Shown piece by piece: positions 27,999-28,886 of a stretch of 64,000 nt of DNA (within the stretch, counting starts at the first letter, position 1; every line of letters starts with the position of its first letter). The notes beneath the pieces are model-generated. The model searched no databases and was not told where the DNA came from. It saw only the letters and a list, made by a program, of their open reading frames with translations. Source of the DNA: Stylophora pistillata (taxonomy: Eukaryota); contig NW_019218183.1 of assembly GCF_002571385.2 (NCBI RefSeq), positions 227,993-291,992 on the forward strand. Direction: 5' to 3'. Made by a program: the position numbers and the translations under genes.

Positions 27999-28886
27999 AT
28001 GAGGTTTACGACCAAAGTGTCGTCTACGCAGGAGACAAGAGTTGCTGAATCGGCGACATCCGATCAGACTTTAACATTCTCCGTTAAGAAATCGGAGGTC
28101 TCTAATGGCGCGACTATCACAGATTCGGAGAGCGAGGGAGCTGTCGGCGGAGTACCGCTCAAAAAATCAAGTACACTCAACGTAAACCGCGAACAAATTG
28201 AAGATTTCACCCGCGTCCGCGACAAAATATTCCCTGTGATCAAAGCGCGCTCTTGGATAGACGCCACGAAGGATTTACTCGTCAGAATAGATCCCAAGAA
28301 CAAAGCGGGTGTCTTGTTCACGCCACTGAAGAATATTCCTGGTGCAAAACTTGGTTACACGCTAGCGATCGTCGACGACAGTCAAAGCACCGATTCACTT
28401 AAATATATCTCGACGAGCCATTTAGAAGCGTGGATCACCTCGGAGAGTGTTCTTCAAGAGGTGGCGCTAAAAAATCTAGAACAAAAGCTGGACGATCGGG
28501 GAGAACATCTCTGGGCTCAGAGTAAGGCAGGTATTCACTACATTGATAATTTGGGAGCGATATCAGCATCTGTTGTCTTACTCCCGCGTTTCATAGCACG
28601 TTTGGATGTGGAGATTGGCGACGCTGTCATTGTGGTGCCTTCGAGTGATCTCTGCATGGTTGTGGGATCTAAAATGGAGACGCGGCTCTGCATCGTAGGA
28701 GAAATGTCCCTTCGATATTCCAGTGATCCGCATCATTTGAACGCGATCCTTCGTTTGAACAAGTCAAGAATGGTAATTGCAATATACACACCGAAATCTT
28801 ACGCCGGAGAATTTCCCGTCCCCTCGACTCTCGAAGAAGTCGCTGGCCTAAAATTAAGGGTACCTCTGATTAAAAGAAAAAAATAA
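27999..28886 (+). CDS. Intronless uncharacterised protein (295 aa) resembling the bacterial DUF1444/YtpQ (UPF0354) family
   Basis: First ATG at 27999. After a low-complexity N-terminus, the blocks KIFPVIKARSW, AIVDD..DSLKYISTSHLEAW..SESVLQEVALKNL, YIDNLGAISASVVLLPRFI and GDAVIVVPSSDLCMVVGS follow the order I recall for DUF1444 (IYPVIR..; D...YRLI...IREMALFN; NDGYDASRIL; GEM.VAVP.QDVLII). The family call is by eye. Confidence 0.7.
   Translation: MRFTTKVSSTQETRVAESATSDQTLTFSVKKSEVSNGATITDSESEGAVGGVPLKKSSTLNVNREQIEDFTRVRDKIFPVIKARSWIDATKDLLVRIDPKNKAGVLFTPLKNIPGAKLGYTLAIVDDSQSTDSLKYISTSHLEAWITSESVLQEVALKNLEQKLDDRGEHLWAQSKAGIHYIDNLGAISASVVLLPRFIARLDVEIGDAVIVVPSSDLCMVVGSKMETRLCIVGEMSLRYSSDPHHLNAILRLNKSRMVIAIYTPKSYAGEFPVPSTLEEVAGLKLRVPLIKRKK

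What the first reader, a model, noticed from the sequence alone, without database searches (positions are those of the whole stretch)
27999..28886. Intronless DUF1444/YtpQ-like gene: candidate bacterium-to-cnidarian horizontal transfer
Seen: an intact 295-aa single-exon ORF embedded among animal genes and repeats, contiguous without a gap to the SNX6 3' end, with AATAAA ~45 nt after the stop. Recognised by eye: four sequence blocks in the order and spacing of DUF1444, a family I know from bacteria and whose function is unknown. The ~60-aa Ser/Thr-rich N-terminal extension looks like a eukaryotic addition. Inference: a domesticated bacterial gene.
Basis: partly seen in the sequence, partly recalled or inferred. 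Interest (0 to 1): 0.7.

Follow-up and report, generated by a model that had tools for sequence, protein, structure and literature searches.

The report
Ancient bacterial-type gene domesticated in corals
This is a real coral gene, found in messenger-RNA libraries and conserved in stony and soft corals, that is distantly related to the bacterial DUF1444/YtpQ family; it likely came from bacteria before those coral groups split, and it likely no longer does the heme-making reaction of its Bacillus relative but serves as an intracellular binding protein.

Summary
The ORF (27999-28886, +, 295 aa, one exon, one copy found) is a genuine coral gene. It is covered by poly(A) contigs, has flank-level DNA depth, and its core dN/dS is 0.03-0.06. 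The DUF1444 call is right but remote: P0001 misses the Pfam and NCBIfam cut-offs. Profile-profile probability is 99.8, and a bacteria-only HMM scores it 94 bits (best of 500 shuffles 7.9). The family is no longer function-unknown: Bacillus YtpQ is CgoN, an FAD coproporphyrinogen oxidase. The gene is not coral-specific. An octocoral orthologue (26% identity) has a GT-AG intron and also lies beside symplekin, so the gene predates the hexacoral-octocoral split. Two further unnamed clades branch where jellyfish and hydrozoans would, and two odd unplaced homologues exist. Bacterial origin is likely; the donor is unresolved. The animal proteins lack YtpQ's N-terminal domain and have eroded its conserved acidic motif. 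The coral has HemF and no ChdC hit, so CgoN activity is unlikely. Best guess: a repurposed, tail-regulated intracellular binding protein with no close solved fold. Verdict: a real, apparently unreported animal branch of a bacterial family, a new variant of a known kind (anthozoan HGT).

The parts
27999..28886 (+). Single-exon gene, 295 aa (P0001), animal-type DUF1444/YtpQ-fold protein
27566..27998 (+). Transcribed leader, likely the 5' UTR (contig strand not known); one upstream ATG at 27857; last ~60 nt conserved in other corals
   Evidence: RNA contigs start at 27566 and 27625
27999..28169 (+). Ser/Thr-rich N-terminal tail (res 1-57) in place of the YtpQ N-terminal domain; ends in a basophilic kinase-type site KKSS (res 55-58; motif pattern recalled, not tested)
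   Evidence: 35% S+T, dN/dS 0.10-0.16 in 3 of 5 pairs; no homology before res ~64-66
28194..28796 (+). Core (res 66-266) homologous to the central and C-terminal domains of YtpQ/DUF1444
   Evidence: hhalign prob 99.8 and 99.7; AF2 model of res 58-295, pLDDT 93.7
28551..28574 (+). Eroded family motif: LGAISASV (res 185-192) where bacteria have N/G-D/G-x-Y-D/E-A-S-R/L
   Evidence: column table
28686..28703 (+). Animal-specific LCxxGE motif (L230 94%, C231 89%, G234 94%, E235 83% of 18 animal-type rows)
28797..28883 (+). Animal-specific C-terminal tail: E271 and P275, a predicted helix, and a polybasic end (6 K/R in the last 15 residues)
28920..28935 (.). Back-to-back poly(A) hexamers: minus-strand AATAAA at 28920-28925 and plus-strand AATAAA at 28930-28935 (use as signals inferred)
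31088..38420 (-). Convergent neighbour SNX5/6 (3' exons; last coding exon about 31088-31137); same neighbour in a second coral
   Evidence: splice joint 31137-31733 in RNA
570..6028 (+). Symplekin 3' exons, 22 kb upstream; symplekin also flanks the octocoral orthologue

Best explanation
This is a conserved, transcribed, apparently single-copy coral gene for a two-domain protein of the DUF1444/YtpQ fold, likely acquired from a bacterium before stony and soft corals split and likely repurposed as a non-enzymatic intracellular binding protein rather than a heme enzyme. SHOWN: intact ORF, purifying selection, poly(A)-library cover, orthologues in both major stony-coral clades and in an octocoral, shared linkage to symplekin, an intron in the octocoral copy, homology limited to YtpQ's central and C-terminal domains, erosion of the bacterial acidic/aromatic motif, no signal peptide or clear transmembrane stretch. 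INFERRED: bacterial origin (about 0.8); entry at or before the cnidarian stem, because two unnamed clades branch as Medusozoa would (about 0.6); loss of CgoN chemistry (about 0.8). PREDICTED mechanism (about 0.5): the folded core, with its new conserved LCxxGE/Arg252/Tyr263/Glu271/Pro275 residues, binds a protein partner. The polybasic C-terminus would place it in the nucleus or on acidic membranes, and phosphorylation of the Ser/Thr tail would tune it.
For: Host gene: DNA contig 26950-30073 at depth 26 like the flanks; RNA contigs cover 27566/27625 onward and none of 26950-27447; GC3 0.49 within the host range 0.39-0.55; core dN/dS 0.033-0.064 in 5 of 5 pairs. Orthologues named from Stylophora, Pocillopora, Montipora and Acropora. 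Octocoral locus L003: symplekin 91% identical to Paramuricea clavata, 105-nt GT-AG intron, symplekin linkage shared with the window. Bacterial kinship. Among 85 hits in 1.84 billion representatives, after the animal-type set come bacterial-type DUF1444 proteins (20 of 34 scanned pass the Pfam cut-off), with only two other eukaryote-like rows recognised. The 18 animal-type rows form one clade (SH-aLRT 99.7 without seven long branches) shaped ((hexacoral-type, octocoral),(B,C)). Against CgoN: the paper places the predicted FAD/substrate site at the N-domain interface (PMC10965808) and that domain is missing. The D/G-x-Y-D/E-A-S-R motif and the Asp of the YALD stretch are eroded. The coral has an exon-split HemF and no ChdC match. 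For a binding role: relatives are fused to Sel1 repeats, SEC-C and a MYND finger, and Gram-negative relatives have no conserved neighbour and no heme gene among 75 upstream neighbours.
Against: No partner, ligand or location was shown; the binding role rests on elimination and domain fusions. The catalytic residues of CgoN are not known, so motif erosion is indirect. C231/E235/H245/R252 could form a new active site. With long branches kept, support for the animal-type clade is only 73-79. The donor is unresolved: grouping with Bacilli YtpQ is not rejected (p-AU 0.61 and 0.59), and the quick searches missed better trees. Clades B and C and most hexacoral-type rows are unnamed. P0146 (MYND fusion, N-domain-like part kept) and P0151 may be non-cnidarian eukaryotes. 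The deep search used a coral-only profile, so divergent eukaryotic members may be missed. Most bacterial rows were picked by that same profile. RNA strand is unknown, and the SNX5/6 3' UTR may account for part of the cover.
Confidence: 0.55

Rival explanations
1. Retained flavin/porphyrin function: the protein still binds FAD or a tetrapyrrole and oxidises or buffers porphyrinogens (oxygen-independent step, detoxification or iron/heme homeostasis).
For: The only characterised family member is CgoN (PMC10965808, parts 1, 3, 4, 5 read). B. subtilis ytpQ is tied to iron homeostasis (PMC3176815, title and start of abstract only). The core fold is kept under strong selection.
Against: The N-terminal domain that closes the predicted ligand site is absent, and the conserved acidic/aromatic motif is eroded. 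The coral has HemF and no ChdC hit, so coproporphyrin III would be a dead end (a no-match in a draft genome is weak). Gram-negative relatives are mostly leader-bearing (60 of 75 by a crude hydropathy test) and show no heme context.
Confidence: 0.15
2. New enzyme or redox sensor: the animal-specific Cys231/Glu235/His245/Arg252/Tyr263/Glu271 set forms a novel catalytic or thiol-switch site.
For: These residues are 56-94% conserved in 18 animal-type rows at about 25% identity and absent in bacteria. True ytpQ sits behind a thioredoxin gene in 3 of 3 annotated loci.
Against: Whether these residues cluster on a surface was not tested. C231 is missing in one animal-type row of alignment A2 (P0127) and H245 is only 56% conserved. 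No fold match suggests a chemistry.
Confidence: 0.2
3. Not a transfer into the cnidarian line: an older eukaryotic gene, or one passed through a protist, that was kept in cnidarians and lost or diverged elsewhere.
For: P0146 (intronless MYND fusion on 0.7-0.8 Mb contigs) shares the LCxxGE motif and the tail and groups with the animal rows at 88-89; P0151 is intermediate. Their taxa are unknown.
Against: Only two such rows were recognised among 85 hits over 1.84 billion representatives, and no named fungal, plant, bilaterian or protist member appeared in the look-ups made. Vertical descent from early eukaryotes would need many losses.
Confidence: 0.2
4. Contaminant, recent insertion or non-coding antisense artefact inside the SNX5/6 3' UTR.
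For: RNA contigs run continuously from the ORF into spliced SNX5/6, and their strand is unknown.
Against: DNA depth matches the flanks; core dN/dS is at most 0.064; synteny is conserved; the octocoral copy has an intron; orthologues are named in four genera.
Confidence: 0.01

Closest known systems
YtpQ / CgoN of Bacilli (Pfam PF07285 DUF1444; NCBIfam NF010189 PRK13668; PMC10965808)
   Same: Homologous central and C-terminal domains: true YtpQs score E 1.8e-10 to 3.1e-6 (4-sequence database) on the animal profile from YtpQ residue 74-116 on. P79, K82, A156, N159, S191 and P214 are shared. The only confident Foldseek hit (BFVD A0A2H4PQY3, prob 0.99, TM 0.60 on a 139-aa target) has the length of a phage-record CDS 100% identical to staphylococcal YtpQ 134-270, so it is probably that fragment (accession mapping inferred).
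   Different: No N-terminal domain, eroded NDGYDASR motif, added Ser/Thr and polybasic tails, below both curated cut-offs, no ytpP-ytpQ-ytpR operon, and the host shows no sign of the coproporphyrin pathway.
Gram-negative DUF1444-like proteins: the ~285-aa leader-bearing subfamily (Verrucomicrobiota, Bacteroidota, Pseudomonadota and others) and an unnamed ~400-aa subfamily (P0140, P0156, P0175, P0201 and others)
   Same: hhalign probability 99.8 and 99.7 over the core. The 400-aa subfamily is the best-tree neighbour (SH-aLRT 86-92).
   Different: They keep the N-domain and the acidic motif. Many carry signal-peptide- or lipobox-like leaders or an extra C-terminal domain. Sister status is not established.
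Anthozoan horizontally acquired genes (Bhattacharya et al. 2016, PMC4878875: 41 HGTs, 28 at the anthozoan ancestor)
   Same: Same class of event: a bacterial-type gene shared by several anthozoans, with a gene tree that follows the species tree.
   Different: No DUF1444 in the passages and Table 1 rows 1-28 that I saw. Three rows there are unnamed 'predicted' or 'hypothetical' proteins from A. digitifera that I could not map, so earlier listing is not excluded.

Membership tests
DUF1444 (PF07285) | Score at or above the Pfam gathering cut-off (23.8 bits) | tested here: not met
   No hit for P0001; 13 of 26 orthologues hit, best E 1.6e-4; 0 of 13 distant animal-type proteins hit at E<=1e-3
DUF1444 (PF07285) | Homology to the core of proteins that pass the cut-off | tested here: met
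   hhalign 99.8, E 2.3e-29, 185 columns; bacteria-only HMM 94.3 bits against at most 7.9 for 500 shuffles
YtpQ/CgoN equivalog (NF010189) | Full-length match above 221 bits | tested here: not met
   18.5 bits, residues 131-242 only
YtpQ/CgoN | Three-domain architecture including the N-terminal domain (res 1-78) | tested here: not met
   Homology starts at P0001 res 64-67, about YtpQ res 75-85; res 1-60 are a Ser/Thr-rich tail
YtpQ/CgoN | Conserved N-D-G-Y-D-A-S-R motif and the Asp of the YALD stretch (conserved in the bacterial rows here; catalytic role unknown) | tested here: not met
   Only Ser (100%) and Ala (72%) are kept in 18 animal-type rows; Asp 33%
YtpQ/CgoN | Same fold | tested here: inconclusive
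   Model pLDDT 93.7; no solved YtpQ to compare with; best BFVD hit is probably a YtpQ C-terminal fragment, E 0.011
YtpQ/CgoN | FAD-dependent oxidation of coproporphyrinogen III | not testable with these tools
   Needs purified protein
YtpQ/CgoN | Host with the coproporphyrin-dependent pathway (ChdC/HemQ) | tested here: inconclusive
   No PF06778 match, HemF present; draft genome, exon-wise search
Domesticated bacterial HGT gene in an animal | Physically in the host genome, flanked by host genes, host-like composition | tested here: met
Domesticated bacterial HGT gene in an animal | Expressed and under purifying selection | tested here: met
   poly(A) contigs, strand unknown; dN/dS 0.03-0.06
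Domesticated bacterial HGT gene in an animal | Nested with support inside a defined bacterial clade | tested here: inconclusive
   Best-tree sister at 86-92; alternative donors not rejected
Domesticated bacterial HGT gene in an animal | Absent from outgroup eukaryotes | tested here: inconclusive
   No named non-cnidarian hit, but P0146, P0151 and clades B and C are unplaced

The most novel reading that the evidence does not exclude
A bacterial CgoN-fold gene entered the cnidarian stem, was kept in single copy across Anthozoa and Medusozoa, and still handles flavin or porphyrinogens with its new tail standing in for the lost lid domain. That would give cnidarians an oxygen-independent tetrapyrrole-oxidising or -detoxifying activity unknown in animals, relevant to the nightly hypoxia and daytime photo-oxidative stress of corals.
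Probability: 0.1. Interest if true: 0.8.

Novelty: new variant of a known kind. Interest (0 to 1): 0.5.

Why it matters
It extends a family described as bacterial (98% Bacillaceae for close YtpQ homologues in PMC10965808) to animals. The gene has been kept under strong selection since before the hexacoral-octocoral split, over 500 million years by my recalled dating, gaining an intron in one lineage and new tails in all. It is invisible to Pfam and NCBIfam cut-offs, so standard HGT screens and annotations would miss it. It gives a confident model with no close solved fold and a natural 'lid-less' test of how CgoN works. If clades B and C are medusozoan, it is a phylum-wide acquisition testable in Nematostella, Hydra or Clytia. 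It is not a new kind of system: ancient anthozoan HGT is known.

Tried and rejected
Direct Pfam scan: no DUF1444, only DUF5688 at E 0.037. PDB sequence searches empty. First AlphaFold run with 26 coral rows failed, pLDDT 32.6. Fold searches of the good model found no PDB match at E<=0.001 and best Z 2.9; this shows neither a new fold nor the absence of relatives, and single domains were not searched. Homodimer prediction gave 'no answer', score 0.00, which is no evidence either way. Viral origin: IMG/VR scans with A4, P0146 and P0151 found nothing, and A5 gave one 35-residue weak hit. Paralogues: one core locus only in the own genome; other P0146 hits are MYND fingers. An immunity-protein role was considered: 1 of 75 upstream neighbours is Imm35 and no conserved toxin neighbour was seen; the 78 downstream neighbours were not scanned. 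The ESM Atlas gave DUF1444-type and bacterial clusters but could not place clade B or P0146. Cluster look-ups gave no taxon names for clades B and C, P0121-P0123, P0146 or P0151. The bootstrap tree did not finish, and the test of separate origins for anthozoan and B/C rows did not finish. Trees used 80 rows after dropping 30 redundant ones, and 73 after dropping 7 long branches. Runs X11 and X12 give near-identical numbers and count as one. Earlier-findings look-ups by sequence, place and the combined words were empty.

Full report
OBSERVATION. Window 27999-28886 (+) is an intact 295-codon ORF (P0001), with no upstream in-frame ATG and one match in the 398-Mb genome. AATAAA lies at 28930, 43 nt past the stop. 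The neighbour is a convergent SNX5/6 gene (exons read; Vps5/BAR domain in the orthologue) whose stop is about 2.2 kb away with no N between. Residues 1-60 are 35% Ser+Thr. The 90% cluster of P0001 holds a named Stylophora pistillata protein, so the host is very probably that coral.

IT IS A HOST GENE. A DNA run gives one contig over 26950-30073 at depth 26, like the flanks (20-30). Poly(A) RNA contigs from X6 and X11/X12 (the last two look like one data set) start at 27566 and 27625, cover the ORF with no joint, and leave 26950-27447 bare. The SNX5/6 intron is spliced (joint 31137-31733). Contigs give no strand, and they run on into SNX5/6 mRNA, so part of the cover may be its 3' UTR. Against five coral loci the core has dN/dS 0.033-0.064 (dS near saturation) and the tail 0.10-0.16 in the 3 of 5 pairs that could be computed. 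GC3 is 0.49 against 0.39-0.55 for three host genes. The first protein search gave 33 homologues at 49-98% identity among 1131 candidates, named from Stylophora, Pocillopora, Montipora and Acropora. In another coral (L005, 77% identity) the same contig holds the convergent, spliced SNX5/6.

IS IT DUF1444? Remotely, yes. P0001 has no PF07285 hit and 18.5 bits on PRK13668 against a cut-off of 221; 13 of 26 orthologues hit PF07285, best E 1.6e-4. A coral profile over 1.84 billion representatives gave 85 hits at E<=1e-3. Of the 47 I scanned, 13 were animal-type (no Pfam hit) and 34 were others, of which 20 pass the DUF1444 cut-off, 5 hit below it and 9 do not hit. Profile-profile comparison gives probability 99.8 (E 2.3e-29, 185 columns, P0001 res 66-266) with a ~285-aa Gram-negative subfamily and 99.7 with a ~400-aa subfamily. 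An HMM of 46 bacterial sequences scores P0001 at 94.3 bits, against at most 7.9 for 500 shuffles and 3.0 reversed; 42 of those 46 were first found with the coral profile. Four true YtpQs (three in thioredoxin-ytpQ-ytpR operons; one from an unannotated record) score E 1.8e-10 to 3.1e-6 on the animal profile in a 4-sequence database. AlphaFold of res 58-295 with 95 rows gives pLDDT 93.7, pTM 0.90. The one confident Foldseek hit (BFVD, 139 aa, prob 0.99, E 0.011) has the length of a phage-record CDS identical to staphylococcal YtpQ 134-270; that they are the same entry is my inference.

AGE AND RANGE. Metagenome loci L003/L004 (2 of 7 loci) encode a 26%-identical homologue split by a 105-nt phase-1 GT-AG intron, beside symplekin. 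Several other N-terminal halves stop at the same place. That symplekin is 91% identical to Paramuricea clavata, 87% to Dendronephthya and about 48-50% to stony corals, so the locus is octocoral. Symplekin also lies 22 kb upstream in the window (exons 570-6028), with the relative orientation inverted. The gene therefore predates the hexacoral-octocoral split. Trees of 80 core sequences (30 redundant rows dropped; SH-aLRT only) give ((hexacoral-type 97-98, octocoral-type) 96-97, (clade B 99, clade C 95-96) 92-93) under two models. This is the shape of Anthozoa plus Medusozoa, but clades B and C and most hexacoral-type rows carry no taxon name. The 18 animal-type rows are one clade at 73-79 with long branches and 99.7 without seven of them. 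P0146 (MYND fusion) and P0151 are unplaced and share parts of the animal signature. The best-tree neighbour is the 400-aa bacterial subfamily (86-92), but grouping with Bacilli YtpQ is not rejected (p-AU 0.61 and 0.59), so no donor can be named. Bacterial origin rests on the lopsided distribution, not on a supported nesting.

HOW IT MOST LIKELY WORKS. YtpQ was described as CgoN, a monomeric FAD/menadione coproporphyrinogen III oxidase with three domains (1-78, 79-161, 162-270) and a predicted ligand site at the N-domain interface (PMC10965808; parts 1, 3, 4 and 5 of 7 read). The animal proteins match only from about YtpQ residue 75-85; a Ser/Thr tail replaces the N-domain. Structural residues are kept (P79, K82, A156, N159, S191, P214), but the bacterial D/G-x-Y-D/E-A-S-R motif reads LGAISASV, and the Asp found in 89-100% of bacterial rows falls to 33%. 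New conserved residues appear: W86, G119, Y136, LCxxGE 230-235, R252, Y263, E271, P275. The coral has exon-split HemF and no ChdC match, so coproporphyrin III would be a dead end. There is no signal peptide or clear transmembrane stretch; the C-terminus is polybasic in 12 of 12 proteins checked (3-7 K/R in the last 15 residues), and 9 of 12 have a basophilic kinase-type site before the core (the motif pattern is recalled). Gram-negative relatives of the 285-aa subfamily (best 80 of 241 loci) mostly carry hydrophobic leaders (60 of 75 scored, 27 with a lipobox-like Cys; crude test), share no neighbour family in more than 7-8 loci apart from overlapping-frame artefacts, and have no heme-synthesis family among 75 upstream neighbours. 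Other relatives are fused to Sel1, SEC-C or MYND. I therefore commit to a repurposed, intracellular, non-enzymatic binding protein, located by its basic tail and tuned by phosphorylation (about 0.5). A new Cys/Glu-based activity (0.2) and retained porphyrinogen/FAD chemistry (0.15) are the rivals. None of this function is shown.

WHAT IS KNOWN. Full-text searches for DUF1444 (3 papers), YtpQ (14), CgoN with coproporphyrinogen (8), the gene ids or PF07285 (0), and coral HGT terms showed no animal member in the listings; apart from the two papers named here I saw only listings and abstract starts. In PMC4878875 I saw 12 passages and Table 1 rows 1-28: 41 HGTs, 28 anthozoan, none named DUF1444, three unnamed and unmappable. 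Supplements of these papers and of the Stylophora cell atlas (PMC8162421, listing only) were not seen and could bear on prior listing and cell type. Earlier scan notes on E. coli yrdF (unchecked) only add that DUF1444 occurs outside Bacilli.

VERDICT. Observation confirmed; interpretation partly supported. It works like a lid-less YtpQ-fold protein and is not a member of the CgoN equivalog. It is an ancient, probably bacterial-derived, apparently unreported cnidarian gene family: a new variant of a known kind. Interest 0.5.

Noticed in passing
window 28131-31137 and L005:175-3898: RNA contigs run without a break from this ORF into spliced SNX5/6 mRNA in this species and in a second coral. Back-to-back poly(A) hexamers at 28920/28930 and another minus-strand one at 29607 suggest a conserved tail-to-tail 3' overlap.
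   Followed up: partly
window 28773-29330: The GenBank model P0035 (266 aa; a source calls it 'POTRA domain-containing') splices out the conserved C-terminus at these places. No such joint is seen in the RNA contigs and no POTRA Pfam hit was found for P0001, so the model is probably wrong.
   Followed up: partly
L003:2970-5765 (-) vs window 570-6028 (+): Octocoral symplekin is an uninterrupted frame of at least 931 aa, whereas the stony-coral gene has 11 or more exons in the window; possible intron loss or retro-replacement in octocorals.
   Followed up: no
L003:2-1350: A flavin amine oxidase gene (PF01593) lies just upstream of the octocoral orthologue; no match to it in the window or the two adjoining stretches of the coral contig.
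   Followed up: partly
protein P0146 (no locus held): Unplaced 487-aa homologue with an N-domain-like part, the animal-type motifs and a C-terminal MYND finger, on 0.7-0.8 Mb contigs; key to dating the transfer.
   Followed up: partly
window 51925-52668 (+): Single-exon HAD-family hydrolase ORF (PF00702, E 2e-22); origin not examined.
   Followed up: no
window 7554-8534 (+); 48939-50000 (+); 59016-59624 (+): Single-exon rhodopsin-type GPCR; endonuclease and reverse-transcriptase fragments of retrotransposons.
   Followed up: no
L093, L097; hits H7-H12: Phage-labelled GenBank records carry ytpQ-like genes (two are identical over 137 aa), probably host DNA in the assemblies; one likely puts a YtpQ fragment into the BFVD viral structure library.
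   Followed up: partly
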